From Deltaproteobacteria bacterium (GTDB lineage Bacteria > Myxococcota_A > Polyangia > GCA-2747355 > JADLHG01), in assembly GCA_020848905.1 (NCBI GenBank), contig JADLHG010000026.1, forward strand, positions 17,422 to 81,421: 64,000 bases of DNA. The letters run 5' to 3'. The translations under genes and the position numbers were made by a program. Below are positions 6,654 through 62,681 of this stretch, one piece after another; the stretch's first letter is position 1, and every line of letters begins with the position of its first letter. The notes beneath the pieces are model-generated. The model saw only the letters and a list, made by a program, of their open reading frames with translations, was not told where the DNA came from and made no database searches.

Positions 6654-6754
6654 GCACTCGAGGATGACCTCGGTGCATAACATTGGGAAACGCTCTTTTC
6701 GCTACTCAATAATATTGCACGGCCGAACAATGCCGCGGCGGGCGCTACGGCGGA

Positions 6755-7246
6755 CTACTTCAGGCTGTACGGACCGATCGGCATCTTGCTCGAATCGGTG
6801 ACCTTGACCTTCACGTCGAGGAGGTTGCCCAGCATCCAGAGCACCGGGGACGGCATCCAGGTCGCCGCCTTGGCCAGGGTGTTCACCCCGCGGCCGGTCA
6901 CTTCGACGCCGAAGCCGATGGTCCCCGGGAGCCGCACGTACATGGCGCGCCCCTTCCCCTGCTCGGGCTTCGACTCGAGGCCGTAGACGCCTCCGGTGAT
7001 CAGCTTGCCGTTCAAGTGATCCGACTGAAACGCGGCCACCTCCACGCGATAGGCGCGGTAGCCGGCGTGCTCGGCCGCGGCGTTGGCCCGGACGGCCGCC
7101 TTCATCCGCGGCATGAGCGCCTTGGACAGCACCGTGGCCTGGCGCGGGTTCAGGGTCAGAAACAGCCCCCCCTTTGCCTGCGCCGCTCCTGCGAACAGCA
7201 TCGCCGCCGCGATCACTCCGAGTCCGATTCGGCTCGAGGTTTTCAT
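6755..7246 (-). CDS. Hypothetical secreted protein
   Basis: ATG at 7246 gives signal peptide MKTSSRIGLGVIAAAMLFAGAAQA. Protein-like composition. No recognised domain. Confidence 0.5.
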   Translation of the reverse strand: MKTSSRIGLGVIAAAMLFAGAAQAKGGLFLTLNPRQATVLSKALMPRMKAAVRANAAAEHAGYRAYRVEVAAFQSDHLNGKLITGGVYGLESKPEQGKGRAMYVRLPGTIGFGVEVTGRGVNTLAKAATWMPSPVLWMLGNLLDVKVKVTDSSKMPIGPYSLK

Positions 7247-23317: not shown

Positions 23318-23853
23318 TCCCTCTCCTCCCCCGCGAGCAACCGGGCCCGCAGGTGACTCAGCCGATCCGCGAACACGAGGTCGATGCGTCGCGCCGCGCC
23401 GGCCCGATCCCGGATCGGCTGCCCGAGGAGCGCATCCGACGGACGCGACAGCGAGCTCGGCGCGCGTACCGGGGCCTCGCGCAGCGGCGCGGTGGCCGCC
23501 GGCATCGGCGCCTCGGCACGCTTGGACATCATCAGGCCCACGTTCAGCGCCACGAGCAGGGTCGCGGCGAGGGCGATCCCTCCCCCGAGCTTCAGCCCGA
23601 AACGCCGCCGCGCCGGGGTCGCCGCGCGCCGCTCGGCCACGGCCTGCTCCACGAGCGCCACCTTGCGCTCCTTCGGGAGCCGCTCCTCTCGCACCGAGGC
23701 CCGCAGCATCTCCGCCGCGGCCCGCAGGTCGCGCTGCTCGGGGCGCGGCGCCTCGCTCCCGTCGAGGCTCTGCCCGAAGGCCCGGGCTTGCTCGAGTTCT
23801 TCCTCGGTGGGCGGCGCCTCGTCCTCCGGCCACGATCCGTCCCGACCACTCAT
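23314..23853 (-). CDS. Putative anti-sigma factor (single-pass membrane protein)
   Basis: Lies immediately downstream of an ECF sigma with an ATGA overlap. Central TM helix GGIALAATLLVALNVGLMM. Confidence 0.55.
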   Translation of the reverse strand: MSGRDGSWPEDEAPPTEEELEQARAFGQSLDGSEAPRPEQRDLRAAAEMLRASVREERLPKERKVALVEQAVAERRAATPARRRFGLKLGGGIALAATLLVALNVGLMMSKRAEAPMPAATAPLREAPVRAPSSLSRPSDALLGQPIRDRAGAARRIDLVFADRLSHLRARLLAGEERE

Positions 23854-24476
23854 GGCTCACCAAATCCCTTGCGGAAGGCCTGCACGGCGCGAAAGAGCAC
23901 CACGTCGAAGGTCCCGAGCGTGACCTCCAGCAGCTTGGCACACTCCTCTCGAGGCCTCTCCTCGAGCAGGCGCAGCTCGATCGCCCGCCGGTAGCGCGGA
24001 TTCAACCCCGCCAGCGCCTCCGCGACGCGCGTCGCGTTCAGGCGGCGCTCCTCCTCCACCAGCAGCGCGTCCTCCGGCCCCGACGGCCCCGCGCTCATCG
24101 TCGCGGGCTCCGGCTCGGCCGCCACGCGATCCGCGAGCCGCCGCCGCCGCTGCGTGGCCCGGTGATGGTCCACGACTTTGTGCACCGCGATCTGCCGCAT
24201 CCAGAAATAGATGCTCCGCCCTTGCCAGACGAACGTAGACAGCTTCTCGATGGCTGTGACCATGGTCGCCTTCAGCAGGTCCTCCGCGGTCGCCCGATCG
24301 CCCACCCGCGGCAGAATCACGCGCGCGAAGAGCGCCTCGGCCTGCTGCCCGAGCAGCGTGCGCAAGGCCTCGGGGTCCCCGCGCTGCGCCCGCCGCACGA
24401 GCGCCTCCTCGAGCGACGCGACCTCCGTCCCCGCGCCGGGCGCCCCGCTGGCCTCTGCACCCTCGGATCGAGTCAC
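23850..24476 (-). CDS. RNA polymerase ECF-type sigma factor
   Basis: Sigma-70 region 2 (EDLLKATMVTAIEKLSTF...) and region 4 (RRAIELRLLEERPREECAKLLEVTLGTFDVVLFRAVQAFR). Confidence 0.8.
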   Translation of the reverse strand: MTRSEGAEASGAPGAGTEVASLEEALVRRAQRGDPEALRTLLGQQAEALFARVILPRVGDRATAEDLLKATMVTAIEKLSTFVWQGRSIYFWMRQIAVHKVVDHHRATQRRRRLADRVAAEPEPATMSAGPSGPEDALLVEEERRLNATRVAEALAGLNPRYRRAIELRLLEERPREECAKLLEVTLGTFDVVLFRAVQAFRKGFGEP

Positions 24477-44074: not shown

Positions 44075-44157
44075 GCCTCCTCCCCTCTCCGTCGGGGCGC
44101 AGCATGCCAGCCGCGAGGAGGTCGAGCAACCCCCCGCGCGTGCGTGCCACGCCGCGA

Positions 44158-45672
44158 TCAGCGCCGGCGGGCGAAGAAGAGGGCGAGTCCGAGGAGGAGC
44201 GGCAGGAGCAGGCCGAGGTCGCGGCCACCGCCTGCGCCGAGACGACAGCCCCCCACGCGGTCGGCGAGGTCCGCCGGCGGGCCGCACACCGCGTCGGCAC
44301 CGTCGGGGAGACAGGTCGCGCCGGCAGCGCACGCCGCGCCGCTCTTGTTGCAGCGGGCGGTGCAGTACGAGAGGTTCGTGAGCGGGTCCACCAGGCAGAG
44401 GCCCGTGCTGCAGTCGTTGGCGGTCTGGCACGCGGCGCCGAAGTCCCCCGCGTCGAGCCGCGGCCGACAGATCCGCTCCACGCAGTGGTAGCCCGCTCCG
44501 CAGGCGCTGTTCGCCGTGCAGGCCTGCGTGCAGTACCCGGCCCGCTCCTCCGAGGTGCCGAAGCAGAGCTTGCTGCCGCACTGCTGGCTCTCCGTGCACG
44601 CGGTGCCGAAGGTTCCGGCCCCCGCCGAGACGCTGTCGCCGCCGCGCACCCTCACCGTCACGAGCGCCGAGGCGACGCTGCCGCCGTGCGTCTGCACCAC
44701 CGCCTGAAGGACGCGGTTTCCGCCCCGCAGGGGGCCGATCTCGAACCTGAACGGAGCCTGGCGCTTGCTCGCCGCCACCGTCCCGTCCACGAGGAGGTCC
44801 ACCCGCAGCAGCGCGGGGCTGCTGGCCAGCACCGAGACCTCCACGCGATCCGCCGCCTCGAACCCGCTCGTGGGGCTCAGAATCAGCACGTCGCCGAGGT
44901 CGTGGTCCCCGGCGGCGCGGGGCGCGCGCTCCAGCGCCACCTGGCGGGTGATCCACGCGCGAAAGATGTCCACGCGCATGTCGTTCCCCTCGTCGCCGCA
45001 GCTCCCACCCTTGGTGGAGTGCACGCCGAGCAGGATGGGCCGTCCCTCGCGCAGGGCGAAGGTCGGCCCGCCGGAGTCGCCGTCGCAGATGTTTCCGGCG
45101 GAGGCCGCCGCGCCGTACACGGTGAAGAGCTGGTCCGTCACGGTCCCGACGGTGTTCGTGGCCCGCCGCTTGACGCCGAAGCTGCCCTGCCCCTCGAGCG
45201 GCTTGCCGAACCCCACGAGCACGACGCTCTCGCCCACTCGCGGCGCGCGCGTGGCGAGCTCGACCGGCTCGATCCCGCCGACGTCCTCCATCAGCCGCAC
45301 CACCGCCAGGTCGGCATCGTTGCCACCCACGTAGCTCGGGTGCATCGTGACGGTCGCCGCGGCGAAGCGGGGCCCTTGCAGACCGGAGGGGTAGAAGACC
45401 ACCGGCCCCTGCCCCGCCACGCAGTGACCCGCCGTGATCAGCGTGCGGCGCCCGACGAGCGTGGCCGTGCAGCCCGAGTTCGAGCCGGTCCCCGCCACGA
45501 CGATCGCCCCGACCGCGGCGAAGCCCGACTCCGGCGCACCGTTAACGATGGCCGAGGTACGACTCGTCAACTGGGTCTCGGGGTGCGCGGAGTCCCCCGC
45601 GCAGGCCGCCTGGCCGAGCATGAAGGCCGCGGTCAGTAGCCGGAGCATCAGGGGACCGCTGGAGCGTCGCAT
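44158..45672 (-). CDS. Secreted trypsin-like (S1) serine protease with C-terminal Cys-rich modules and a MYXO-CTERM-like tail
   Basis: Catalytic triad TAGHC / D / GDSGGP. Signal peptide MRRSSGPLMLRLLTAAFMLGQAACAG. C-terminus GGCRLGAGGGRDLGLLLPLLLGLALFFARRR. Confidence 0.8.
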   Translation of the reverse strand: MRRSSGPLMLRLLTAAFMLGQAACAGDSAHPETQLTSRTSAIVNGAPESGFAAVGAIVVAGTGSNSGCTATLVGRRTLITAGHCVAGQGPVVFYPSGLQGPRFAAATVTMHPSYVGGNDADLAVVRLMEDVGGIEPVELATRAPRVGESVVLVGFGKPLEGQGSFGVKRRATNTVGTVTDQLFTVYGAAASAGNICDGDSGGPTFALREGRPILLGVHSTKGGSCGDEGNDMRVDIFRAWITRQVALERAPRAAGDHDLGDVLILSPTSGFEAADRVEVSVLASSPALLRVDLLVDGTVAASKRQAPFRFEIGPLRGGNRVLQAVVQTHGGSVASALVTVRVRGGDSVSAGAGTFGTACTESQQCGSKLCFGTSEERAGYCTQACTANSACGAGYHCVERICRPRLDAGDFGAACQTANDCSTGLCLVDPLTNLSYCTARCNKSGAACAAGATCLPDGADAVCGPPADLADRVGGCRLGAGGGRDLGLLLPLLLGLALFFARRR

Positions 45673-49781: not shown

Positions 49782-52319
49782 TTAGGGCTTCACGATCGTC
49801 GGCGCGCCATCCTTCACCGCCGTCCCGAAGAAGCTCATCGACTGCTTCTTGCCGTTCGGGTTCTGGAAGATGACGAAGTGGTCGTCGTAGGTCCCGTCGG
49901 AAGCGTAGGGCACCATGGCCCCCGTCAGCTTCTTGCCCCCCACCGTGAAGTTCTCCTTCACGGGGGCCTCGATCAACTTGAACTGCGGAGGATTGGGTCC
50001 GCAGCTATCCGGCTTGCAGTCCTTCTCGCAGGTCTTGCAGCTCTCGCTCCCGCCGCAGATCCCATCGCCGCAGCGTTCGGCAGGCTGGTTCACCTGCGAG
50101 AGCCCCATCACGCGCGTCAACGCCTCGATCGTCACGGGAGGCGTGTAGCTGTCGGAGACGCCGTAGCTCAGGAACACGTGCTTGCCCCCCACGCCCTTGT
50201 TCGGGTCCGAGATGATCGAGCGCCCATAGTTGAGCGAGTCGACCTCTTCGAAGAAGAGCTGCAGCAGGTTCAGCAGCGGGTGCGAGGTGCCGACCTTCCC
50301 GTCGGCCATGGCGAGCTGCACCCCCGCCGCGATGTTTACCGGCTTGGTCTTGTACATCAGCGACCCGAGCAGATACCCGCCCGCCCCCGAGAGCAGTGTC
50401 CCCTGCACCCCTGGCTCGAAGGCCAGGAAGGGCAGCCCCTCGACGGTCCCCTGCGAGTGACCGAAGTAGTAGGCCTTGTCCGTACGCAGCTTCACGACCT
50501 CGCCGGTCGGCGAGCTCGCCTTGTCCACCGACAGCGCCCCGAGCACGCGCATGAGCTGGAACTTGTCCGCCGCCGCCTGGTAGACGTTGTCGCGCGCCGC
50601 GCGCGGATTCCGCAGGTTGAAGAAGAGCTCGTCCGGCTTGTCGGTGCTCGCGCGCCGCGGACCGTGCATGCCGCCGTCGATGCTGATCACCGCCATCTTC
50701 GAGAGGTCGGCTCCTGCGCCGTCCTTCACGTCCGCGAGCGCCGCCGCCGTGCCCCCCTCGATGAAGCTCCGATAGTGTCCCCCCGTGCCGTGTCCGAAGA
50801 CGACGACGGGCCAGCCCCCCTCGGGCGTCGGCCCCTTCGGGACCGTGAGGCTGAAACAGACCTTCTCTTCGCGGTCCACGGTCGGCCGCCCCTCTCCGTC
50901 GTAGACGATCGCCCCACCGTCGGCGATGGCCTTGTACGGCGGCTTGCCCTTCTGGAACACGGGCGTCATGTACGTCCCCTGCAGCTCGTGGAACGCCGGG
51001 TCGGCCGCCTTCGGACACGCGTGCGTCGGATCCTTGCCGTCGTCGCAGGGAGACTTGTTCGTGCCGTCGCAGAGCGTCAGCCCTTCCACCTTCGGCGCCG
51101 CCTGCGCCTGCACCACGTCGCGGAAGCGCGCCATCCTGGCCTGCGGGTCCATGGTGGTGAAGACCGCCGCGTTGATCACCGACGCGGGGTCGATCGCCTT
51201 GTCCTTGAGGAAGGCCCGCAGCGGGGCGTAGGCCTGCCACGCCGCCTTCTCGTCGGCGTCCGTGGGCTCCGTCTCGCCCGACACCACCTTGAAGTCCTTG
51301 TCCGCCCCGACCTCCTCACCCTTGCTGTCCTTGACCCCCTTGCGAAGGACCAGCGCATAGGTGGTCTTCGGCGCGAGCGGCACGCCGATCGTGGGGCGCA
51401 CGGCGAACCAGTTGTCGCAGATGTACTTGCCACGCGAGGTGCTCGCGAACATGAAGAGCCCCACTCCGTTGCCGTAGCCCGAGGAGGCCTTGTCGATGTT
51501 GTAGAACTGGATCGTCGGCTTCTCGCCGCTCACGGTGAGCGAGCCAAGGTCCACGGTCTTGCTGAAACGCATGAAGACCGCGGTGCTGAGCCCGAAACCC
51601 GTCACGTCCTCGCTGATCGCCTTCAGGTACTCGGCGACGATCTCCCCTAGCTCAGGCGGCAGCGCTTTCGACGGATTCGGGTGCTGCGTCACGTCCACCC
51701 GTCCGTTCTTCAGGCGGATGTTGTTCGGGAACGGGAGCTGGTAGAACTCGGCCAGCCCCTGCCCCTTGCGCGGGATCTCGAAGTACGAGCGCAGAGGCCC
51801 TGTGTCCTGGTTGCAGCTCACCCCCGCCCAGAAGGACATCGGCGCGCACTTGTCCTGGTAACAGACGAGGCCGAGCGAGCAGTCCATCTGCCCGCCGCAG
51901 GCCTCTCCCTTGAGCTTCGTCCCGGGCGCGCCGGGCTTGGCGCACTTCAGGGTGCCCGAGCAGAGCAGCCCCTTGCCGCAGCTCTCGTTCCCCTTGCACT
52001 CCTGCCCCTCGCTCGCGTTCCCCGGGTCGGCGCACTTGCCGAACGAGGCGCACACGTACTGCGCCTGGCAATCCAGGTTCGAGGCGCAGCCGTCGTCCTT
52101 GCCCTGCGTGCCGGGTTGTCCCGGCCGGGCGCACTTGCTCTCGCCGGAGCAGACGAGCGTGGGAGCGCACTCCGCCGTGGCCGCGCAGCCCTCCCCTTCC
52201 TTTCGTCCCACGCCCCCATCTCCGCCGGGCACCGTCTCGGAGTTGGTACACCCCGGAAGGAACTTCGCTCCGGCCCCGACGCACCCTAAAAACACCAATG
52301 CCGCCGCAACGCGTTTCAT
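49782..52319 (-). CDS. Large secreted lipoprotein with N-terminal Cys-rich repeats and an alpha/beta-hydrolase (esterase/lipase-like) domain
   Basis: Signal MKRVAAALVFLGCVGAGA. Repeated CxxxxxC modules. YYFGHSQGT nucleophile elbow. C-terminal Cys-rich module. Confidence 0.6.
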   Translation of the reverse strand: MKRVAAALVFLGCVGAGAKFLPGCTNSETVPGGDGGVGRKEGEGCAATAECAPTLVCSGESKCARPGQPGTQGKDDGCASNLDCQAQYVCASFGKCADPGNASEGQECKGNESCGKGLLCSGTLKCAKPGAPGTKLKGEACGGQMDCSLGLVCYQDKCAPMSFWAGVSCNQDTGPLRSYFEIPRKGQGLAEFYQLPFPNNIRLKNGRVDVTQHPNPSKALPPELGEIVAEYLKAISEDVTGFGLSTAVFMRFSKTVDLGSLTVSGEKPTIQFYNIDKASSGYGNGVGLFMFASTSRGKYICDNWFAVRPTIGVPLAPKTTYALVLRKGVKDSKGEEVGADKDFKVVSGETEPTDADEKAAWQAYAPLRAFLKDKAIDPASVINAAVFTTMDPQARMARFRDVVQAQAAPKVEGLTLCDGTNKSPCDDGKDPTHACPKAADPAFHELQGTYMTPVFQKGKPPYKAIADGGAIVYDGEGRPTVDREEKVCFSLTVPKGPTPEGGWPVVVFGHGTGGHYRSFIEGGTAAALADVKDGAGADLSKMAVISIDGGMHGPRRASTDKPDELFFNLRNPRAARDNVYQAAADKFQLMRVLGALSVDKASSPTGEVVKLRTDKAYYFGHSQGTVEGLPFLAFEPGVQGTLLSGAGGYLLGSLMYKTKPVNIAAGVQLAMADGKVGTSHPLLNLLQLFFEEVDSLNYGRSIISDPNKGVGGKHVFLSYGVSDSYTPPVTIEALTRVMGLSQVNQPAERCGDGICGGSESCKTCEKDCKPDSCGPNPPQFKLIEAPVKENFTVGGKKLTGAMVPYASDGTYDDHFVIFQNPNGKKQSMSFFGTAVKDGAPTIVKP

Positions 52320-54193: not shown

Positions 54194-55108
54194 ATGATTC
54201 CAGTCCTCCGCGTCGGCCTGGCGCTCTTTCTCGTGGCTCTCGCGCCGCGAGCGGCGGCTGCCCGAGACCTGCAGGGGCCTCGGGTCATCGCCATGGGCGG
54301 GTCCCTCCGCGCGGCCGCGGCCGGCACCTCGGCGCTGATCATGAACCCGGCGGGGATGAGCCTCGCTCGCATGTACAACATCACCGCCTTCTACCAGTAC
54401 CGCGCCTCCGACGCGGCGAACCTGATCAACGCGGCGGTGGTCGACTCGGTCACGGCCCGCCTCGCCGCGGGGCTCTCGTACTCCTTCGCCCGCGCCAACC
54501 CCGTGCAGACAGTGGCCCTCGCCGGCGGCAAGCTGCTCACGCTCGACGAGGTCACGAACACGCACGAGGTCGCCCTGGGGCTGGCCTACCCGCTCGGGAG
54601 CCTCGCTACGATCGGCCTGACGGCGAAGTACCTCAACCACCAGTCCACCCTGCCGAGCACCGCCCCCGCGGAGCTCGCTCCGGCGGGAATCAGCACCGTC
54701 AGCTTCGACGCGGGCGCCATCATCAAGCTCGTCCAGGGGCTGCAGGTGGGCGTCGTGGGCTACAACCTGGTCCCCGTGGACAGCTACAACTACCCCCGGC
54801 TGCTCGGCATGGGGGCCTCGTACACCTTCGCGCAGCTCATGACGCTGAGCTTCGACACGGTGTTGAACTTCAACAGCCACCCCGACGGGGTGAAGCCCAG
54901 CTTCCACGGCGGCCTCGAGGCCTTCTTCTCGCAGCGCTACGCCTTGCGGGCCGGTGCGGCGCACGACATGGTCCGCGGCACGACCTACGTGACGGGGGGC
55001 CTCGGCCTGCTCTCCCAGCGCGTGGGTGCCGAGGTGGGCGTGCGACAGATGGTGAAGGGCGGAGCCGAAACCCTGCTCGCCTTCTCACTCCAGCTCTTCA
55101 TGCAGTAG
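54194..55108 (+). CDS. Putative outer-membrane beta-barrel protein
   Basis: Signal peptide MIPVLRVGLALFLVALAPRAAAA. Alternating hydrophobic beta pattern. C-terminal ...LQLFMQ. Confidence 0.55.
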   Translation: MIPVLRVGLALFLVALAPRAAAARDLQGPRVIAMGGSLRAAAAGTSALIMNPAGMSLARMYNITAFYQYRASDAANLINAAVVDSVTARLAAGLSYSFARANPVQTVALAGGKLLTLDEVTNTHEVALGLAYPLGSLATIGLTAKYLNHQSTLPSTAPAELAPAGISTVSFDAGAIIKLVQGLQVGVVGYNLVPVDSYNYPRLLGMGASYTFAQLMTLSFDTVLNFNSHPDGVKPSFHGGLEAFFSQRYALRAGAAHDMVRGTTYVTGGLGLLSQRVGAEVGVRQMVKGGAETLLAFSLQLFMQ

Positions 55109-55132: not shown

Positions 55133-55726
55133 ATGAATCTCCGGGAGCGCTGGCTCGTCCACCGGCTGCAGCAGCGGGATGAGCGCGCCTTCCGCGAGAT
55201 GGTGCGGACCTACGAGGCCCAGGTCTTCAACCTGGTCTTCCGCATGCTCGGCAACCGGCAAGAGGCAGAGGACCTGGCGCAAGACGTCTTTCTCACCGTC
55301 TTCAAGTCCATCGACAGCTTCAGAGGCGACAGCAAGCTGAGCACCTGGCTCTACCGTATCGCCGTCAACACCTGCAAGAACCGCTACAAGTACCTCGCGC
55401 GGCGGCGACACAACGCCCTGCAACCCCTCGACGAGGCCAGCGAGCGCGAGGCGGCGGCGCAAGACCAGGGCGGCCCCACGATCCCCTTGCAGGCGCACCT
55501 GAGCCGCCCCGATCACCTCGTCGAGGGGCGCGCGCTCGAGGCGGCGCTGCAACGCGAGCTCGAGAATCTGGAGGAAGAACACCGCCTGCTCATCGTGCTC
55601 CGCGACGTGCAGGGGCTGAGCTACCAGGAGATCGCAGCCATCACCCAGCTGCCCGAGGGGACCGTGAAGTCGCGCCTGCACCGCGCGCGCATGGCCCTCA
55701 AGGAGCGGCTGGAGAAGTACATGTGA
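55133..55726 (+). CDS. RNA polymerase ECF sigma factor (RpoE-like)
   Basis: Region 2 FREMVRTYEAQVFNLVFRMLGNRQEAEDLAQDVFLTVFK. Region 4 LRDVQGLSYQEIAAITQLPEGTVKSRLHRAR. Confidence 0.85.
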   Translation: MNLRERWLVHRLQQRDERAFREMVRTYEAQVFNLVFRMLGNRQEAEDLAQDVFLTVFKSIDSFRGDSKLSTWLYRIAVNTCKNRYKYLARRRHNALQPLDEASEREAAAQDQGGPTIPLQAHLSRPDHLVEGRALEAALQRELENLEEEHRLLIVLRDVQGLSYQEIAAITQLPEGTVKSRLHRARMALKERLEKYM

Positions 55727-55733
55727 GCGGCCC

Positions 55734-56156
55734 ATGGACCATCAGCGCGCAAACGAGCTGTTCAGCGAGTACCTCGAGGGAGAGCTCCCGCCCGAGGAGA
55801 AGCAGGCGGTCGAGGAGCACCTCGCCGGCTGCGACACCTGTCGCGCGGAGCTCGAGGCCTTCCGCACGACGCTGCGAGGCCTGTCGGGGCTGCACACCCT
55901 GCCGCCGCCGACGGACTTCGCCCATCAGGTGGAGCAGCGCATCCACCGCCGCTCGCGCGGGCGCTTCTTCGGCGACGACCGCACGCTCAGCCGCATCCCC
56001 TTCGAGTGGCTCTCCTTCGCGCTCATCGTCTTCGTGCTCGCCATGTACGTTCTGCTGATGCTCGATTCGAAAAAGGTGGCTACCCCGCCGAAGGGGGGCA
56101 GCGGGCCCGCCGCGCGGTCCGGTGACGGCGGGAAGGCGACTCCGCCCGCCCCGTGA
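55734..56156 (+). CDS. Zinc-finger (ZAS-type) anti-sigma factor, membrane-anchored
   Basis: HLAGCDTC matches H-x3-C-x2-C. A TM helix LSFALIVFVLAMYVLLML follows. Lies 8 nt downstream of the ECF sigma. Confidence 0.7.
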   Translation: MDHQRANELFSEYLEGELPPEEKQAVEEHLAGCDTCRAELEAFRTTLRGLSGLHTLPPPTDFAHQVEQRIHRRSRGRFFGDDRTLSRIPFEWLSFALIVFVLAMYVLLMLDSKKVATPPKGGSGPAARSGDGGKATPPAP

Positions 56157-56247: not shown

Positions 56248-58038
56248 CTACTTGCGGACCTGGAAGCCGAAGATCTTGTCGTCGGGCATCTTCGCCAGCT
56301 CCACGCCGGTGACCAGCATGCCGTCGGTGCGGTGCGCGACGACGTCGAGGAAGTCCACACCCACGTCGTAGTAGCCGTCGTTGCCGTAGTCGTAGACCAC
56401 GTCGAACTTCAGCAGCCCCACTTGGTCGAGCGGCAGCGTCGAAGGATTGATGATCGCGACGGGCGGCGAGTTGGTGCAGCTATTCTGCACGGTGGCGCCC
56501 TGGTACTGCACGACCTTGTCCTTGTAGTAGATGCGGCCCACGCTCCCCGGACCGCCCGGCTTGACTATCTGCGGGTTGTTCCAGAATTTGGACCAATCCT
56601 GGTGCGCCACGACGATCTTGGTCACGTTGGCGTGCTTCCCTTCCGCCATGCCGACGGGCGGGTTCACGTAGGTGAAGATCGGGTTCGACACGGTGTACGT
56701 GTTGTCCCAGCCCTCGATGATCCCGCGCCCGGGGGAACCGTACGCGAGGTTCACGATGAGGTGCGAAGAGGTCATGCGCGCCTGCACGGCCTCGTCGTAG
56801 GCCTTCTGGGCCGCGGCAGCGAGCGTGGCGTCGGTGGCCGCGGACTTGGCCAGCGTGGCCGCCTGCTTCGAGGCCGTCTCGGACTTGTCCGCCTCGGCGC
56901 GACAGGTCGGCGCGTCGGCGAGCGTCTGATCGAAGGCCTTCTGCGCGGCGAGGGCCGCCGTCTCGGCCGCTTGCGCCTGGGCCTGGGCCTGGGTGGCCGC
57001 CTCGCGCGCCGCCTTGGCCTTGGCCTGCGCCTCGGGGCTGTTCTTCGCCGCCGCCTCGGCCTGGTCCGCCGCATCGGCAGCCGCCTTGGCCGCCACCTTC
57101 GCCGCGTCCGCCGCACCGCGTGCGGTCAGGCTGTCCGACTTCGCGCGGAACCACGCGCCGCTGTACTGGATGGTCAGGCCCACCTCGGACTCGCCGTCCA
57201 CGCCGTCCTTGTGACCGAACGAGTGGTCGAACTTCCCGTTGCGGTCCACGTCCACGATGATGTCGTAGGGGCCGACGTTCTTGCCGGTAGGCTGCCAGCC
57301 GAGGTCGGTGGGCTTGATGATGCCGTTCTCCACCTTGGCCACGATGGGGCCGGCGAGCCAGCCCTCCTGGCCGCGCTGCGGAATGGGCTTGTTCTTCCAG
57401 ACGTCCTGGTCCTTCACGAGGTAAAGGTCCACGGAGGTGACGCCCGTCGGAAACCCGCGCCCGGCGGCGTAGACGGGAGCCGCGGTCTCGCCGTTGTCGG
57501 GGAGCGCCCCCACGACGTAGGCGTTGATCGGGCGGCCGTCCGGCTTGGCGCTGTAGACGTGCGGAGGCTGGACCTCGTCGATCTGGAAGCCGTAGCCCTG
57601 GATCATGTGCAGCGTCGGCAGCACGGGGACCTCGCCGGAACCGACGAGCTTGCCCGCCTCGAGGTCGTGGATCTTGACCTGCAGGGTGTCCCGCTCCTTG
57701 ACGCCGTCGAACTCGGTGAGGTCGTGGGCCACCGAAGCGAGCCCCAGCCGACCCATCGTGTCGGTGAGCAGGTCGGCCCGCGCCACCTCCTTACCGGTGT
57801 CCTTGTTCACGACGAGGACCTGGTGCATGGCGTTCGCGCGATAGAGGGTGTCCTTCCCGGTCGCGATCTGCAGCGCGCCGCCGCTTCGCAGCACGCCGTC
57901 GTCGCCGCCGGAGCTCTCGATCGCCAGCCCGCTGCTGCCGAAGCGTCCCTGGCCGTAGCCCGGGTCGGCCGTGTCAGCGCAGCCGCCAGCGACAAGACCC
58001 ACGATCCCGATGGCGCGAACGAAGCGGACTGGACGCAT
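56248..58038 (-). CDS. Hypothetical lipoprotein with an internal Ala/Gln/Lys-rich low-complexity linker
   Basis: ATG at 58038 with a GGAGG RBS. Signal MRPVRFVRAIGIVGLVAGGCAD. Confidence 0.55.
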   Translation of the reverse strand: MRPVRFVRAIGIVGLVAGGCADTADPGYGQGRFGSSGLAIESSGGDDGVLRSGGALQIATGKDTLYRANAMHQVLVVNKDTGKEVARADLLTDTMGRLGLASVAHDLTEFDGVKERDTLQVKIHDLEAGKLVGSGEVPVLPTLHMIQGYGFQIDEVQPPHVYSAKPDGRPINAYVVGALPDNGETAAPVYAAGRGFPTGVTSVDLYLVKDQDVWKNKPIPQRGQEGWLAGPIVAKVENGIIKPTDLGWQPTGKNVGPYDIIVDVDRNGKFDHSFGHKDGVDGESEVGLTIQYSGAWFRAKSDSLTARGAADAAKVAAKAAADAADQAEAAAKNSPEAQAKAKAAREAATQAQAQAQAAETAALAAQKAFDQTLADAPTCRAEADKSETASKQAATLAKSAATDATLAAAAQKAYDEAVQARMTSSHLIVNLAYGSPGRGIIEGWDNTYTVSNPIFTYVNPPVGMAEGKHANVTKIVVAHQDWSKFWNNPQIVKPGGPGSVGRIYYKDKVVQYQGATVQNSCTNSPPVAIINPSTLPLDQVGLLKFDVVYDYGNDGYYDVGVDFLDVVAHRTDGMLVTGVELAKMPDDKIFGFQVRK

Positions 58039-58376
58039 GCGGGTTCCTCCTCTTGAGCCTGAGGCTAAGCATTTCCCAGGCCAGATGACCAGCGTTGGCA
58101 CATGGGGTCGGCAGCCCCAGGGATGGCCCGTCTAAGCGCCTTGAACCAGTGACATCTACGCGGGACGCGGGGCCTTTCCACGATCGTCGGATCCTCGTCC
58201 GGACGGGGGGACGACTGTGCCCGAAGTGCCCGGCCCGCTGGGGTCATCCGTCCCCGTCCCGAGAGGGGGAACGGGCCTCCCGGTGGTGGGTAACTATCCT
58301 ACATCCCCCGGAAATTTGGGAGGCGATCTCTCGCATGGTATCCAGGCTTTCCACCCCCAGAGGAGGGAGCCGACCC

Positions 58377-61367
58377 GTGCAGATCGCCAACGCAGACCCT
58401 CAACGATCAGATCTGGACCTGCAGAGCGCGAACGATCCCCGGGCCATGGCCCTGCGGCTGGTGGGCGCCGGCAAGAAGGTCCTCGTAGCCGGGCTCGTCG
58501 AGGAGTCGGTGCTTCGAGCCCTGAAGGAACAGCAGTGCCACCTCGTCGTCGTGGCGAAGGAGCGGCAGGCGGCGACCGCGCTGCGCAAACACTGCGCGAC
58601 GGTGATTCACGGTGACCTCGCGCAGCTGAACCTCGGGCCGTACCTCCACGGGCGCAAGTTCGACGTGCTTCTGCTTGGCCAGCTCCTGCAGCAAACGCCC
58701 GCCGCTGCGACCCTCGTGCGCCGACTGCTGCCCTATCTCTCGGAGCAGGGCGCGATCGTCGCCGTCTTCCTGAACGCGGCGCACGCGAGCCGACGTCTGG
58801 CGCTCCTCGCGGGTGAGGCCGACGCGGTGCAGGAGGGGGCCGCGCTCTCGCTCGGAAGCCTGGACGAGATCCGCCGCGGCCTGGCCGAGGGCGGGCTCGC
58901 GCTCGACGCCGTGGAGCGGCTCTACAGTCCGCTCTACGAGAAGCCCGTCGGCGACGGAGATACGTGGGACACCGAGAGCATTCCTCCCGCGGTCCAGCTG
59001 CTGCTCGAACGTGACCCCGAGGCGTCGGTCGGCTTCTACGTGGCCCGCGCGGTGCGCAACCGGATCGATGCGAGCGTCGAGACGCCGCGCCCGGCTCGTC
59101 CCTCGCGCGCTCCGAACGGCCGCCGGACCCTGCTGAGCCGCGCGGAGCAGCAGACGCTCGAGGCGCCGCTGCGTCAGGCCCACGAAACGCGGATGCAGGC
59201 CGAGGCGCGCCTCGCCGCCCTCGCGCTCTCGATGCGCGAGACGGAAGAGGAGAGCGTGCGGCTGCGGGGACAGCTCGACGAACTGCACGGCGAGCTCGAG
59301 GAGCTCCGCCGGCACGCCGAGCAGCACGCGGGGGCCTCCACGGCGCAGGCGGCGAAGCTCCAGCTCCAGCTCGTGGAGCGCGAGGAGGAGCTTCGGCGAC
59401 GGGCGGCGGGGCTCGAGGCGCTCGAGCGCGAGCTCGAACGCAGCGTCGAACACGGCGAGGAGGCGCGGAGGGAACTGGCGCACCTCCTCGGCGAACGGGA
59501 CGGGGAGATCGCGGCGAAGGAAGCGGCGCTCCGCACCCAGCAGGCCGCGGTCGCCGAGCTCGAGGCCGAGCTCGGCCGGCTGCGAGCCCTCGCGCAGACC
59601 GACACGGCGGCGCACCTCCGTCGGGTCGCCGAGCTCGAGGAACGCGAGGCCTCCCAGGGCATCGCCGTGGCCGAAGCCGAGCGCCGGCTGGAGGAGCTTG
59701 CCGAGCGGCTGCGGCAGAGCGACGCAGCCCGGGACGCGCTCGACGCCGAGCTGCTGCGACGTCGCGAGGAGGTGACGGCCACGGAGGAGGCGCGAGCCGC
59801 GCTCGACGCGGCCCTGGCGACCCTCGCAGCGAAAGAGAGCGCTCTCGCGTCCGAGCAACACCGCTCCACGGCCAGCCTCGCGGCCCTCGAGCGTCGGCTG
59901 GAGCAGGAGCGAACTGCGGCGGAGCAGACCTCGCTCACCTTGGCGGCGCGGCTCGGCGAGCTGGAGGACCGGCTGCGCGAGGCCGAGGCCGAGCGAGCCG
60001 AGCGCGAGGGGGAGCTGGACGGGCTGCGCACCCGCCTCGAGGTCACCCGCGGGTGGCTGGCCGAGCGCGACGAGCAGGTCGCCGCGGTGACGGCGCACCT
60101 CGAGCGGACGCAGGGGCACCTCGACGAGACGACCGGAGAGCTGGCCGCGTTCGCCGCGCGTCTGGAGAGCTGCCAGGCCGAGCTGTCGCAGCGCGAAGCG
60201 TCGATCGAGGAGCTCAAGGCCCGCCTCGCCGGGGAGCGCGAGCAGGGAGAAGCGGCACGCCGGGCGCTGGCCGAGGCCGAGGGCACGCTGGCCGAGGTCG
60301 AGAGCGCGCTGGCCGCGCAGGCCCTCGAGCTCGAGGCGAGCGCATGCGCCCTCCACGGCGCGCAGGGGCAGGTCCGGGCCGAGCAGGCCCGCGCGGCGCT
60401 ACTGGAGGACGATCTGGAGGCCACGCGCAACGGGGTGGGCCTCGAACGGGCGCGAGCGGAGGCGCTCGCGGCGACGCTCGAGGGGGCCCACCACGAGCTC
60501 GCGGCGGTGCGCACCCAGGGGGAAGCCACGACCCTCGCGCTCGAAACCACCCGCGACGAGCTCGCGGCGGCGCGCAACCACGGGGAAGCCACGGCCTTCG
60601 CGCTCGAGGTCGCCCGCAACGAGCTGTCGGCAGCGCGCACCGACGCAAACACCACGGCCCTCGCGCTCGAGGCCGCCCGCGACGAGCTGTCGGTCGCCCG
60701 CAGCCGCGGCGAAGCGCTCGAGCTGACCCGAGAGGAGCTGACGGCGGCACGCGCCCGCGGCGAGGCCCTCGAAGCGGAGCTTCGCGAAGCCCGCGGCGAC
60801 CTGGCGCAGGAGCGCACGCGCACCGACGAGCTCTTCCGCCGGAGCTCCGAGCAGGCCGAGGAGATCCGCGGCCTCGAGCAACGACTCGCCCGCGCGGGAG
60901 CCGAGGTGGCCGCGGTGCAGAGCTCGCTCGAGGCCCGCGTCTCCTCGCTCCTGACCGACCTCGGCGAGCGCGAGCAGATCCTGAGCGCCCGCGGCGCGCG
61001 CGTGCACCAGCTCGAGGAAGAGGCCGAGACGCTGCGCCGGGCCGCGCAGCACATGCGGGCGGTCCTCGAGCTCCACGCCGCGGAGCTCCAGGACGAGCTC
61101 TCACGGCTGCGCGGGAGCTTCCTCGTGCGGATCGCCGCGCGGGTGATGGACACGCGCGAGCGGCTGCTGCCCGTGGGGACCCGCCGACGCGCGGCCTACG
61201 ACCGCCTCGTCGGATACGCTGCGACGGCGACTCCGCCCACGCGCTCGGAACAGCTCAGCCGCTCCGCCCGCCCCCGCGGCGCGTCGCGGCCGGCCTCCTC
61301 CACCCCCCTCGACGGTGCGATCTCGCGCGCCACCTCCCTCTTCCGGCAGCCGTCGGCGCGGGCATAG
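58377..61367 (+). CDS. Large coiled-coil protein with an N-terminal Rossmann/methyltransferase-like domain
   Basis: GTG at 58377 with GGAGGG 8 nt upstream (alternative ATG at 58335). N-terminal VGAGKKVLVAG glycine-rich loop. Roughly 750 aa of E/A/R/L coiled coil with 21-aa tandem repeats. Confidence 0.6.
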   Translation: MQIANADPQRSDLDLQSANDPRAMALRLVGAGKKVLVAGLVEESVLRALKEQQCHLVVVAKERQAATALRKHCATVIHGDLAQLNLGPYLHGRKFDVLLLGQLLQQTPAAATLVRRLLPYLSEQGAIVAVFLNAAHASRRLALLAGEADAVQEGAALSLGSLDEIRRGLAEGGLALDAVERLYSPLYEKPVGDGDTWDTESIPPAVQLLLERDPEASVGFYVARAVRNRIDASVETPRPARPSRAPNGRRTLLSRAEQQTLEAPLRQAHETRMQAEARLAALALSMRETEEESVRLRGQLDELHGELEELRRHAEQHAGASTAQAAKLQLQLVEREEELRRRAAGLEALERELERSVEHGEEARRELAHLLGERDGEIAAKEAALRTQQAAVAELEAELGRLRALAQTDTAAHLRRVAELEEREASQGIAVAEAERRLEELAERLRQSDAARDALDAELLRRREEVTATEEARAALDAALATLAAKESALASEQHRSTASLAALERRLEQERTAAEQTSLTLAARLGELEDRLREAEAERAEREGELDGLRTRLEVTRGWLAERDEQVAAVTAHLERTQGHLDETTGELAAFAARLESCQAELSQREASIEELKARLAGEREQGEAARRALAEAEGTLAEVESALAAQALELEASACALHGAQGQVRAEQARAALLEDDLEATRNGVGLERARAEALAATLEGAHHELAAVRTQGEATTLALETTRDELAAARNHGEATAFALEVARNELSAARTDANTTALALEAARDELSVARSRGEALELTREELTAARARGEALEAELREARGDLAQERTRTDELFRRSSEQAEEIRGLEQRLARAGAEVAAVQSSLEARVSSLLTDLGEREQILSARGARVHQLEEEAETLRRAAQHMRAVLELHAAELQDELSRLRGSFLVRIAARVMDTRERLLPVGTRRRAAYDRLVGYAATATPPTRSEQLSRSARPRGASRPASSTPLDGAISRATSLFRQPSARA
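60518..60780 (+). repeat. Tandem 63-nt (21-aa) repeats inside the coiled-coil gene, about 3 to 4 copies
   Basis: The unit GGGGAAGCCACGACCCTCGCGCTCGAAACCACCCGCGACGAGCTCGCGGCGGCGCGCAACCAC recurs at about 60518, 60582 and 60645 with substitutions. Confidence 0.7.
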
Positions 61368-61410: not shown

Positions 61411-61995
61411 TCACTTCGCGCAGTAGCTGCAGGGCACGCCGGGGACCGGGTTGCACGTACCGCCCCCCGGACAACTCGAGGTGCAGGTGGGCCGACAGAG
61501 GCCGGTCTTCGCCGTGGGCGGCGACGCGATGCACACGAGGGTCCCGGCGCACGGGCGGTCCTCGTCGCAGGCCTTGCCCTCGCCTTCGCCCGGCATGCAC
61601 ACGGCCTGGCTTATGACGGTGTTGATGCAGGTCTCGCTATCCTTGCACGGGCTGACCTTCGGATTGCAGTCGGCGCGCGTGCAAGGCGACCGACAGGCGC
61701 CCTTCACGCAGAGCAGCGGGGCCTTGCAGGGGCATGGCCCGCCGGGGATCGTCGTGAGCACCGTGCTGTCGGGCTTGACGGGCGCCGCGTCGGCTCGGAC
61801 GGCGGGCTGGTCGTAGTGCACGGCCAGGTCCGCCGGCGGGACGGCGCGGTCACGGAGCGGCGCCGCGTCGGCCGGAGGAATGGGGCTCGAGCTGCCTGGG
61901 CAACCGGCGGTGCAGCTGACGAGAGCGATCCAGAGCCCCGGAGTTCGGAGGAGCGCCGACGCGAGGCGAGAAGGGGTGGGTGAAGGCATTGTCAT
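61411..61995 (-). CDS. Cys-rich lipoprotein (paralog A)
   Basis: ATG at 61995 or 61989. Signal MTMPSPTPSRLASALLRTPGLWIALVSCTAGC. About 20 Cys, including GGPCPCKAPLLCVKGACRSPCT. Confidence 0.55.
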   Translation of the reverse strand: MTMPSPTPSRLASALLRTPGLWIALVSCTAGCPGSSSPIPPADAAPLRDRAVPPADLAVHYDQPAVRADAAPVKPDSTVLTTIPGGPCPCKAPLLCVKGACRSPCTRADCNPKVSPCKDSETCINTVISQAVCMPGEGEGKACDEDRPCAGTLVCIASPPTAKTGLCRPTCTSSCPGGGTCNPVPGVPCSYCAK

Positions 61996-62039
61996 CCGTT
62001 TTGCAATCCACGTTCCGTAGGAGGCCAGTCGACGAGAGC

Positions 62040-62681
62040 GTGACCACAGCGTGCCACAGCCGGACGAAATGGGTGCAACGCCTCGCGCTTTCCGCCGGAT
62101 TGGTCGCCCTGACCGCAAGCCAGGGGTGCCAGACCGGCACGGTGGAAAGCGGGGACGCTAGACCCCAGGGCCCCCCTCCGACCTGGAGCGATCAGGGGAG
62201 CTGGCCCGATCGGGGGGCGGAGCGAAAGGACCAGAGGCTCGCCGACCGGGATGCCGGGGCGGGGGAGGCCCGGCCGAGGGACCGCGGCGTCCGGGACGCG
62301 GGCCGAGCGGACGCACCGACGACGCCCGGGCTGGGCGGACCGTGCCCGTGCAAGGCCCCCTTGCTCTGCGTCTGGAAGACCTGCCACGCCCCCTGCACTC
62401 CCTCCGGAGGCTGCGACGAGCTCTCGGGATGCCCGTCGAACCAGGCCTGCATCGCCGTCACCGACCGCCCGGCCGGGACCTACGCCTGCGTCCCCGGGGT
62501 CGCGCTCGGTGCCACCTGCGACGCGAACACCTCGTGCCGCAGCGGGACGATCTGCGCCACGGTCTCGGGCAAGCCTTTGCAGTGCACCGCCACCTGCCCG
62601 ACGCCGGGCGCGGGCTGCGGGCAGGGTGGCCTGTGCATCCCCACCTCCCGCGCGGGCTGCAACCTCTGCGCGCCGCCGTGA
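62040..62681 (+). CDS. Cys-rich lipoprotein (paralog B), divergently transcribed
   Basis: Lipobox LVALTASQGC. GGPCPCKAPLLCVWKTCHAPCT is shared with paralog A. Start is uncertain (GTG 62040, or in-frame 61980/62001/62076). Confidence 0.5.
   Translation: MTTACHSRTKWVQRLALSAGLVALTASQGCQTGTVESGDARPQGPPPTWSDQGSWPDRGAERKDQRLADRDAGAGEARPRDRGVRDAGRADAPTTPGLGGPCPCKAPLLCVWKTCHAPCTPSGGCDELSGCPSNQACIAVTDRPAGTYACVPGVALGATCDANTSCRSGTICATVSGKPLQCTATCPTPGAGCGQGGLCIPTSRAGCNLCAPP

What the first reader, a model, noticed from the sequence alone, without database searches (positions are those of the whole stretch)
58377..61367. Roughly 1000-aa coiled-coil protein with an N-terminal Rossmann/methyltransferase-like domain and internal 63-nt tandem repeats
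After a roughly 200-aa N-terminal domain with a glycine-rich nucleotide-binding-like loop (VGAGKKVLVAG), the protein is an almost uninterrupted E/A/R/L heptad-like coiled coil. It includes 3 to 4 tandem copies of a 21-aa unit (60518..60780) that are also repeated at the DNA level and so may vary in copy number between strains. The architecture is reminiscent of cytoskeletal or scaffold proteins, but with an enzymatic-looking head. I know of no characterised family that it matches by eye.
Basis: partly seen in the sequence, partly recalled or inferred. Interest (0 to 1): 0.5.

Follow-up and report, generated by a model that had tools for sequence, protein, structure and literature searches.

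The report
Dead-methyltransferase head on 100-nm coiled coil
This is a real, previously undescribed myxobacterial gene for a roughly 1000-residue protein that keeps the layout of the "molecular ruler" enzymes that cap bacterial surface sugar chains, but has lost the cofactor-binding residues of its enzyme head, has a stalk five to ten times longer, and no longer sits among sugar-chain genes, so it most likely acts as a long spacer or tether and not as an enzyme.

The parts
58309..58344 (+). Conserved promoter-like block (A/T tract, CGATC, N6-7, TGnTAT, which resembles an extended -10)
   Evidence: Aligned in all six orthologous loci. The pattern GATC-N6/7-TGNTA occurs once in the 64-kb window, at 58325-58340 (0.46 expected anywhere). 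It also occurs once, 34-39 nt before the start, in every clade locus L001-L010. The simple sigma-70 consensus scan did not call it.
58360..58366 (+). Ribosome-binding site GAGGAGG
   Evidence: Read directly from the sequence, 10 nt upstream of GTG 58377.
58377..61367 (+). Coding sequence, 996 aa plus stop
   Evidence: Codon-position GC. Head and C-terminal homology to orthologues in the same frame.
58434..59060 (+). Head: class I SAM-methyltransferase fold (aa 20-228) of the 3cc8/MetW-like family
58479..58505 (+). Degenerate motif I (aa 35-43, VLVAGLVEE; family consensus VLELGCATG)
   Evidence: Among 143 other family representatives, position 43 is Gly in 95% and position 37 is Glu/Asp in 94%. 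The focal protein has E43 and V37, and 9 of 10 clade members lack G43. In addition A60 replaces the post-I Glu (89% E), and Q102 replaces the motif IV Asp (95% D; 0 of 10 in the clade).
59061..59168 (+). Pro-rich linker (aa 229-264; P237, 239, 242, 246, 264)
   Evidence: Proline positions. Low pLDDT and no secondary structure.
59169..61157 (+). Coiled-coil rod (aa 265-927)
   Evidence: No proline. The 3.5-residue periodicity has z = 18.8, with constant heptad register over aa ~511-780. Composition is A 21%, E 18%, L 15%, R 13%. The low-confidence single-sequence AF2 model gives helices 255-317, 322-426, 431-581, 586-778 and 785-927.
60462..60764 (+). Tandem array: four 63-nt (21-aa) units at 60462-60713 plus one 51-nt (17-aa) truncated unit
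   Evidence: TRF, in-register listing, and identity compared with background.
61053..61232 (+). Conserved basic C-terminal module (aa 893-952), including LLPVGTRRR at 61164-61190
   Evidence: Apart from the head, this is the only region that tblastn recovers between orthologues. It aligns with the same module in GT-fused and short relatives. It is net positive in all members, whereas the rod is net -43.
61233..61364 (+). Basic S/T/P/R-rich tail (aa 953-996), predicted disordered
   Evidence: Composition and charge. No secondary structure in the AF2 model.

Best explanation
The gene encodes a cytoplasmic three-part protein that descends from glycan chain-terminating 'molecular ruler' enzymes. 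In those enzymes an N-terminal methyltransferase is followed by a coiled-coil spacer and then by a C-terminal base that docks the polymerase or carries the glycosyltransferase modules.

In this Myxococcota clade three things have changed:
1. The head keeps the methyltransferase fold and stays under selection, but it has lost the residues that hold S-adenosylmethionine. It is most likely a binding module (a pseudoenzyme).
2. The coiled coil has grown from about 60-150 aa to 700-870 aa, roughly 100 nm if extended. It grew by in-frame duplications that are multiples of a heptad; the 63-nt repeats are one such trace.
3. The gene no longer sits with glycosyltransferase or ABC-transporter genes.

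The most likely mechanism is as follows. The chains oligomerise through the rod. The conserved basic C-terminal module anchors one end to a partner or to the anionic inner face of the membrane. The head is then held a fixed, long distance away, so the protein acts as a spacer, tether or scaffold and not as a catalyst.

Shown: the fold, the motif loss, the monophyly of the clade, purifying selection on the head, heptad periodicity, the shared C-terminal module, and the absence of glycan genes nearby. Inferred: loss of SAM binding, oligomeric state, an extended geometry, what the C-terminal module binds, and the cellular role.
For: Fold.

Family size and architecture: 1185 hits. The top full-length hits, P0003 and P0005, have the same head + ~700-800 aa rod + LLPxGSRRR.

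Motif loss is specific to the clade. G43 is Gly in 95% of 143 relatives but in 1 of 10 clade members. D102 is Asp in 95% of relatives but in 0 of 10 clade members. N133, H136, R140 and G146 are retained.

The clade is monophyletic, 30/30 NJ bootstraps.

The head is under purifying selection: dN/dS is 0.17 at dS 0.35 for L005 vs L006. Head and C-terminal module are 37-69% and 33-67% identical between orthologues, while the rod is only 29-50% identical.

Rod length stays at 707-873 aa in five orthologues.

Repeat arrays in orthologues are all heptad multiples: 42 nt x 12.3, 63 nt x 6.4, 126 nt x 1.8 and 21 nt x 3.2.

Intact relatives are fused to GT2/GT4 domains or lie in clusters with ABC_tran/ABC2_membrane, WsaF-like, GT2, GT4 and dTDP-sugar enzymes.

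No such genes occur anywhere in the 64-kb window or around the clade members L001, L004, L005, L007 and L009.

The ruler paradigm is described in PMC11231755 and PMC5082667.
Against: No biochemical test was done. Some methyltransferase-fold proteins bind SAM with atypical loops, and D80, F95-D96 and the N133/H136/R140 motif are retained.

The C-terminal segment of the focal protein is basic but not clearly amphipathic (muH 0.21, no higher than the rod average). Membrane anchoring is therefore only an analogy.

Oligomeric state, and whether the rod is extended or folded back, are unknown. The full-length AF2 model has pLDDT 54.

Glycan genes could lie elsewhere in the genome.

dN/dS values for distant pairs are saturated and unreliable.
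Confidence: 0.55

Rival explanations
1. It is still an active chain-terminating methyltransferase and ruler. The head binds SAM through a non-canonical pocket, and the very long coil sets the length of an unusually long ABC-transporter-dependent polysaccharide whose genes lie elsewhere in the genome.
For: Ancestry in the terminator/ruler family and retention of both ends of that architecture. The head is under purifying selection. D80, F95-D96, N133, H136 and R140 are retained. In WbdD-type systems the polymerase is a separate protein (PMC11231755).
Against: Clade-wide substitution of the motif I Gly (to E, V or L), of the motif IV Asp (0 of 10 retained) and, in several members, of the post-I acidic residue. 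The replacing residues vary between members, as expected for a relaxed pocket. No GT, Wzm/Wzt or sugar-nucleotide genes occur in any of five independent genomic contexts. A 100-nm ruler would imply chains of roughly 200 or more sugars (own estimate).
Confidence: 0.2
2. It is a filament-forming coiled-coil-rich cytoskeletal protein of the crescentin/FilP/Scy type. The rods assemble laterally into filaments, and the head and tail are accessory.
For: A long heptad rod with few breaks. Weak composition-driven matches to tropomyosin/EzrA/SMC-type coiled coils.
Against: The conserved parts are the globular head and the C-terminal module, not the rod, which drifts to 29-36% identity. That pattern fits a spacer better than a self-assembling lattice. 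No homology to known filament formers beyond composition. Filament formation cannot be tested here.
Confidence: 0.15
3. It is an SMC/Rad50-like chromosome-organising protein.
For: NCBIfam SMC_prok_B scores 58 bits, and Rad50 and ASRP give weak hits over the rod.
Against: The scores are far below the cut-offs (58 against 567). All hits lie in the coiled-coil region. There is no Walker A/B ATPase head, hinge or zinc hook, and the head has a methyltransferase fold.
Confidence: 0.02
4. It is not a real gene: either a chance open frame in GC-rich DNA, or the shadow of the antisense ORFs at 58407-60356 and 59174-61153.
For: The antisense frame also has a coding-like GC pattern (0.90/0.48/0.85). The protein is absent from the public protein collection under three candidate starts.
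Against: The head homology, the C-terminal module, the RBS and the conserved promoter block are all on the + strand and in one frame. Six orthologues keep the same frame open for 995-1149 codons. The codons for E, A, R and L are reverse complements of one another, which explains the antisense shadow ORF.
Confidence: 0.01

Closest known systems
3cc8 (BCE_1332, Bacillus cereus putative methyltransferase) and the MetW/Methyltransf_23-like heads of MTase-coiled-coil proteins
   Different: 3cc8 and 143 of 143 non-clade representatives keep the SAM motifs at 89-98% frequency. The focal clade does not. 3cc8 is a 230-aa stand-alone domain of untested function.
WbdD (E. coli O9a / K. pneumoniae O3 O-antigen terminator and molecular ruler)
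   Same: The same logic of parts: an N-terminal methyltransferase-type head, a coiled-coil spacer, and a C-terminal region that binds the membrane and recruits the polymerase. In WbdD the coil length sets chain length (PMC11231755, PMC5082667, PMC3482155).
   Different: WbdD has an additional kinase domain, an active SAM site, a coil of only about 20 nm, and sits in an O-antigen cluster. No kinase domain is present here. WbdD is not among the 60 listed PDB matches (of 85 at E<=0.001) of the head profile. The rod here is about five times longer, and no glycan genes are nearby.
K. pneumoniae O7 ORF6 and O12 WbbB, G. stearothermophilus WsaE (terminator - coiled coil or linker - GT modules)
   Same: The intact relatives of the focal protein (P0009, P0011, P0016, P0027, P0040, P0083, P0115) have exactly this layout: N-terminal methyltransferase, coiled coil, then GT2/GT4. 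They share the focal protein's LPxGSxR module. The literature also reports orthologues that end after the coiled coil (PMC11231755). WsaE's N-terminal methyltransferase caps the S-layer glycan (PMC2943079).
   Different: The focal protein has no GT domain, no intact SAM site and no glycan cluster.
FrzS / AglZ of Myxococcus xanthus (pseudo-receiver domain + long coiled coil)
   Same: The same design principle in the same phylum: a signalling or enzymatic fold that has lost its catalytic residues, mounted on a long coiled coil and used as a polarity or motility scaffold (own knowledge, not tested here).
   Different: A different head fold (receiver against methyltransferase), no sequence relationship, and no shared C-terminal module.
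ROCK2 (eukaryotic kinase - 107-nm coiled coil - membrane-binding C-terminus)
   Same: [quoted passage not shown] Here the rod is 707-873 aa in orthologues with only 29-50% identity.
   Different: Unrelated proteins. The ROCK2 head is catalytically active.

Membership tests
Class I SAM-dependent methyltransferase (as an enzyme) | Rossmann-like seven-stranded alpha/beta methyltransferase fold | tested here: met
Class I SAM-dependent methyltransferase (as an enzyme) | Motif I: acidic residue plus Gly-rich loop after beta1 (family form: E/D-x-G-x-x-x-G) | tested here: not met
   The focal protein reads V37-A-G39-L-V-E-E43. E/D37 occurs in 94% and G43 in 95% of 143 relatives.
Class I SAM-dependent methyltransferase (as an enzyme) | Acidic residue at the end of beta2 that binds the ribose hydroxyls (post-I) | tested here: not met
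   A60 in the focal protein. Relatives have E in 89% and D in 6%.
Class I SAM-dependent methyltransferase (as an enzyme) | Motif IV Asp after beta4 (family GDVLEHL) | tested here: not met
   Q102, Q105 and Q106 in the focal protein. D102 is 95%, E105 95% and H106 94% in relatives. D102 is present in 0 of 10 clade members.
Class I SAM-dependent methyltransferase (as an enzyme) | SAM binding and methyl transfer | not testable with these tools
   Needs ITC/DSF and an activity assay on the purified head.
3cc8/MetW-like methyltransferase - coiled-coil glycan terminator family | Head homologous to the family | tested here: met
   phmmer finds 1185 hits. Intact members score E 1e-27 to 1e-12 at 27-37% identity. 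The NJ tree places the focal clade inside the family sample.
3cc8/MetW-like methyltransferase - coiled-coil glycan terminator family | Coiled coil directly after the head, ending in the basic (L/F)xPxG(S/T)xR module | tested here: met
3cc8/MetW-like methyltransferase - coiled-coil glycan terminator family | Fused GT modules, or location in a glycan-assembly cluster (GTs, Wzm/Wzt, sugar-nucleotide genes) | tested here: not met
   Present for P0009, P0011, P0016, P0027, P0040, P0083 and P0115 and around P0154 and P0156. Absent in the window and in L001, L004, L005, L007 and L009.
WbdD family | Kinase domain next to the methyltransferase domain | tested here: not met
   No kinase family appears in the Pfam or NCBIfam scans. 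The head ends at aa ~228 and is followed by the linker and the coil.
WbdD family | Sequence homology of the methyltransferase domain to WbdD | tested here: inconclusive
WbdD family | C-terminal amphipathic membrane helix and polymerase-recruitment site | tested here: inconclusive
   The module is conserved and basic, but muH is 0.21 for the focal segment, no higher than the rod average.
SMC/Rad50 | Walker A/B ABC-type ATPase head and a hinge or zinc hook | tested here: not met
   Only sub-threshold coiled-coil matches (58 bits against a cut-off of 567). The head has a methyltransferase fold.
Intermediate-filament-like coiled-coil-rich proteins (crescentin, FilP, Scy) | Self-assembly into filaments | not testable with these tools
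   Only heptad periodicity could be shown.

The most novel reading that the evidence does not exclude
A Myxococcota-specific lineage has turned the O-antigen/S-layer-glycan 'molecular ruler' into a cytoplasmic tether of about 100 nm that no longer makes glycan. A catalytically dead methyltransferase domain serves as the cargo- or ligand-binding head, and the conserved basic module serves as the anchor. This would be a bacterial counterpart of long eukaryotic coiled-coil spacers such as ROCK2 or the golgins. Its length would be tuned by heptad-multiple tandem duplications, and its expression would be driven by a dedicated, deeply conserved promoter/operator.
Probability: 0.35. Interest if true: 0.65.

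Novelty: new variant of a known kind. Interest (0 to 1): 0.42.

Why it matters
If the reading is right, an enzyme-plus-ruler machine has been recycled into a purely structural spacer. It would also add a pseudo-methyltransferase to the small set of bacterial pseudoenzyme scaffolds, in a phylum known for complex cell biology.

The rod gives a natural series for testing whether length, and not sequence, is the selected property. It is 707-873 aa long in orthologues, and each lineage has its own heptad-multiple repeats.

On the practical side, the protein appears to be missing from the public protein annotation of its source MAG. Annotation pipelines would probably label its relatives 'class I SAM-dependent methyltransferase', as NCBI already does for the intact relative P0002, and for this clade that label is probably wrong in functional terms.

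Tried and rejected
1. The full-length word-indexed protein search found nothing, probably because low-complexity coiled-coil words swamp the candidates. The head alone found only two distant hits. The exhaustive phmmer search was needed.

2. The first genome-contig scan with the single head sequence found nothing. The 7-sequence alignment was too divergent for pattern design. A 3-sequence alignment then found two Myxococcota MAG loci and four metagenome loci.

3. dN/dS across distant orthologues is saturated (dS 0.6-1.5) and was not used. Only the close pair L005/L006 was used. L007 and L008 are identical.

4. Synteny. There is no conserved gene neighbourhood, except that an ECF sigma factor lies 2.6-5 kb upstream in the window, in L001/L002 and in L009, with a weak match in L004. 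I discounted this as weak evidence because the window itself has two ECF sigma genes in 64 kb. I also found no ECF-type promoter shared between the sigma gene and the focal gene.

5. The sigma-70 consensus scan found no promoter. The conserved block was found by comparing loci instead.

6. The amphipathic-helix test of the C-terminal module was not convincing for the focal protein.

7. The full-length single-sequence AF2 model is low confidence (pLDDT 54). I used it only for helix boundaries.

8. Exact-sequence look-ups of the protein with starts 58335, 58377 and 58446 found nothing, so no close strain was available for comparing repeat copy number.

9. The SMC/Rad50, EzrA, Fez1 and tropomyosin hits were rejected as compositional.

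10. There are no Rfam families or tRNAs in the window.
Full report
**1. What is there**

The window is 68-75% GC throughout. Its neighbours carry NCBI accessions from a MAG labelled 'Deltaproteobacteria bacterium', on a contig of 181,493 bp.

The frame 58377-61367 (+) has the codon-position GC signature of a real gene (0.83/0.51/0.90). The upstream extension of the ORF back to 58095 is flat, so it is non-coding. GTG 58377 follows GAGGAGG at 58360-58366.

The antisense ORFs at 58407-60356 and 59174-61153 are shadows. Codons for E, A, R and L are reverse complements of one another, and all homology lies on the + strand.

The product is 996 aa, with A 19%, L 15%, E 14% and R 13%.

**2. The head**

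- Pfam gives only a borderline MetW hit: 21.7 bits against a cut-off of 21.
- phmmer against the PDB finds the B. cereus putative methyltransferase 3cc8 at 8.7e-7.
- An AF2 model built on a 42-sequence alignment is confident, with pLDDT 89.9 and pTM 0.86.

In the family alignment, 'GxGK(K/R)VL' precedes strand beta1. The real SAM loop follows beta1, with the family consensus VLELGCATG, and in the focal protein it reads VLVAGLVEE.

Against 143 other family representatives:

| Position | Relatives | Focal protein |
|---|---|---|
| 37 | E/D 94% | V |
| 43 | G 95% | E |
| 60 (post-I acidic) | E 89% | A |
| 102 | D 95% | Q |
| 105 | E 95% | Q |
| 106 | H 94% | Q |

D80, F95-D96, N133, H136, R140 and G146 are kept.

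**3. Relatives**

The exhaustive search with the head found 1185 proteins at E<=1e-3.

The closest hits share the focal architecture. They are P0003 (1113 aa, 46% identity), P0005 (995 aa), and loci recovered from a 'Haliangium ochraceum' MAG, a Myxococcota MAG and four metagenome contigs. Each has:
- a head with a degenerate motif I;
- a Pro-rich linker;
- a rod of 707-873 aa;
- a conserved basic module ...LLPxG(S/T)xRR...;
- a short disordered tail.

These ten heads form a clade with 30/30 NJ bootstrap support. Nine of the ten lack G43, and none has D102. The replacing residues differ between members, as expected for a pocket that is no longer constrained.

The head as a whole is constrained. 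The close pair L005/L006 gives dN 0.062, dS 0.353 and dN/dS 0.17.

Across orthologues, the head is 37-69% identical and the C-terminal module 33-67%. The rod is only 29-50% identical, and for the distant pairs that is close to the compositional baseline.

**4. The wider family**

More distant relatives keep the SAM motifs. They have a much shorter coiled coil of about 60-150 aa, followed by the same (L/F)xPxG(S/T)xR module.

- P0009, P0011, P0016, P0027, P0040, P0083 and P0115 continue into GT2 and/or GT4 domains.
- P0154 and P0156 end after the coil. They lie in clusters with GT2, GT4, WsaF-like, ABC_tran + ABC2_membrane and dTDP-sugar genes.

This is the architecture described for ABC-transporter-dependent glycan assembly. 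A terminating enzyme sits at the distal end of a coiled-coil ruler whose base carries or recruits the polymerase. Examples are WbdD, K. pneumoniae O7 ORF6 and O12 WbbB (PMC11231755, PMC5082667, PMC3482155). In WsaE an N-terminal methyltransferase domain caps the S-layer glycan (PMC2943079).

The head family is not WbdD's by sequence. WbdD is absent from the 60 listed PDB matches (of 85) of the head profile, which is led by 3cc8 at 4e-51. No kinase domain is present.

**5. Context**

Nothing in the 64-kb window is a glycosyltransferase, a Wzm/Wzt transporter or a sugar-nucleotide enzyme.

The immediate neighbours are:
- an ECF sigma / zf-HC2 anti-sigma pair;
- a 617-aa protein with no family match;
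- two Cys-rich putative lipoproteins.

GtrA and acyltransferase genes lie further upstream.

The five other genomic contexts of clade members also lack glycan genes and share no synteny with the window. An ECF sigma gene recurs 2.6-5 kb upstream in several of them. I treat that as weak evidence, because the window alone holds two ECF sigma genes.

**6. The rod and the repeats**

Residues 265-931 contain no proline. Strongly hydrophobic residues show a sharp 3.5-residue periodicity, with z = 18.8 against shuffles and nothing at neighbouring periods. About 270 consecutive residues stay in one heptad register.

The single-sequence AF2 model is low confidence. It draws five long helices between residues 255 and 927.

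At 0.148 nm per residue (own knowledge), about 665 residues would span roughly 100 nm if the rod is one extended parallel coil. That is about five times the roughly 20 nm of WbdD (PMC5082667).

The 63-nt repeat is real:
- TRF score 267.
- Four 21-aa units at 60462-60713, plus a 17-aa unit at 60714-60764.
- 62-79% nt identity between units, against 36 +/- 7% (maximum 59%) for random in-frame rod segments.
- Exact runs of no more than 15 nt.

These are old duplications, not a hypervariable tract.

Every orthologue carries its own array, four of the five in the distal third of the rod, and always with a period that is a multiple of 21 nt:

| Locus | Period x copies | Note |
|---|---|---|
| L007 | 42 nt x 12.3 | unit VEQELGERDERIEA; last copies nearly identical |
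| L009 | 63 nt x 6.4 | |
| L004 | 126 nt x 1.8 | |
| L001 | 21 nt x 3.2 | |

Heptad-preserving duplication is therefore the way these rods change length.

**7. The C-terminal module and tail**

Apart from the head, aa 893-952 is the only segment that tblastn recovers between orthologues. It aligns with the junction between coil and GT in the fused relatives.

It is net positive in every member (+1 to +7 before the Pro-Gly turn, +1 to +5 after it), whereas the rod is net -43. The focal segment is not distinctly amphipathic, with muH 0.21. Membrane binding is therefore an analogy with WbdD and not a result.

**8. A conserved cis element**

All clade loci carry a shared block 34-39 nt upstream of the start: A/T tract, CGATC, N6-7, TGnTAT. 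The window copy is at 58309-58344.

The core pattern occurs once in the whole window on both strands, at 58325-58340, where 0.46 occurrences would be expected anywhere. It also occurs once upstream of the gene in each of L001-L010.

This supports three points: the start codon, an independent transcription unit, and orthology with conserved regulation. The regulator is unknown.

**9. Interpretation**

The safest statement is evolutionary. This is a monophyletic offshoot of the methyltransferase - coiled-coil glycan-terminator family, seen so far only in Myxococcota-type sequences. It has lost the SAM-binding residues, the GT partners and the glycan-cluster context. It has lengthened the coil five- to ten-fold while keeping both terminal modules under selection.

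The functional reading I favour (0.55) is a spacer, tether or scaffold with a pseudo-methyltransferase binding head. The alternatives are:
- a still-active, very long ruler (0.2);
- a filament-forming cytoskeletal protein (0.15);
- an SMC-like protein or an artefact, both effectively excluded.

The design echoes FrzS/AglZ (pseudo-receiver + coiled coil; own knowledge) and ROCK2 (PMC5082667).

**10. Verdict**

This is a new variant of a known kind, of moderate interest (0.42). All functional steps beyond fold, motifs, periodicity, conservation and context are inferences that need the experiments listed.

Noticed in passing
window 58309-58344; L001 9930-9967, L004 ~6660-6696, L005 ~1912-1948, L007 ~247-283, L009 ~7162-7198: A deeply conserved upstream non-coding block (A/T tract - CGATC - N6-7 - TGnTAT) lies 34-39 nt before the start of every orthologue, although the proteins are only 37-46% identical in the head. 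L001 and L009 also have a perfect palindrome, CCTACATGTAGG, about 90 nt upstream. The window has the half-site CCTACAT at 58298-58304.
   Followed up: partly
window 55133-55726 and 55734-56156; L001 5242-5871; L009 2-739; L004 1317-1865: An ECF sigma factor (with a zf-HC2 anti-sigma factor in the window) lies 2.6-5 kb upstream of the gene in several otherwise non-syntenic loci. A regulatory link is possible, but ECF genes are dense here: a second one lies at 23850-24476.
   Followed up: partly
window 58377-61367: The protein is absent from the 15-billion-sequence protein collection under starts 58335, 58377 and 58446, and never appeared as its own hit. Neighbouring genes of the same MAG contig are present (NCBI MCC6748051, MCC6748070, MCC6748071). 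The gene seems to be unannotated, or annotated differently, in the public record.
   Followed up: partly
window 61411-62118 (-) and 61980-62681 (+): A divergently oriented pair of paralogous Cys-rich putative lipoproteins (32% identity over 158 aa, E 3e-15; shared GGPCPCKAPLLCV motif). Their maximal ORFs overlap at the 5' ends. No Pfam or NCBIfam family matches.
   Followed up: partly
window 49782-52319 (-): An 845-aa protein with four N-terminal Cys-rich repeats (C..C....C......C..PG) and a C-terminal region weakly similar to VolA/Pla-1 phospholipases (55 bits, below the cut-off of 384).
   Followed up: no
window 54194-55108 (+): A 304-aa protein with a sub-threshold PorV/PorQ-family match (36 bits against a cut-off of 90), located immediately upstream of the ECF sigma gene.
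   Followed up: no
window 56248-58101 (-): A 617-aa protein, divergently transcribed from the focal gene, with an Ala/Lys/Glu/Gln-rich low-complexity middle and no family match. It has no homologue next to the orthologues.
   Followed up: partly
L007 2097-2612 of the CDS (aa 699-870): The orthologue in metagenome contig Ga0316576_10001494 has 12.3 tandem copies of a 42-nt (14-aa) unit, VEQELGERDERIEA. The last three copies are nearly identical, which points to recent expansion. This is the best place to look for copy-number polymorphism.
   Followed up: partly
window 30441-33089 (-), 8900-12858 (+), 41522-44956 (-): Typical myxobacterial gene content elsewhere in the window: a Ser/Thr kinase with AAA_16 and zinc-ribbon domains, two adjacent histidine kinases, and a DUF3417/alpha-glucan phosphorylase-like gene. 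There are no tRNAs and no Rfam matches in the whole window.
   Followed up: no
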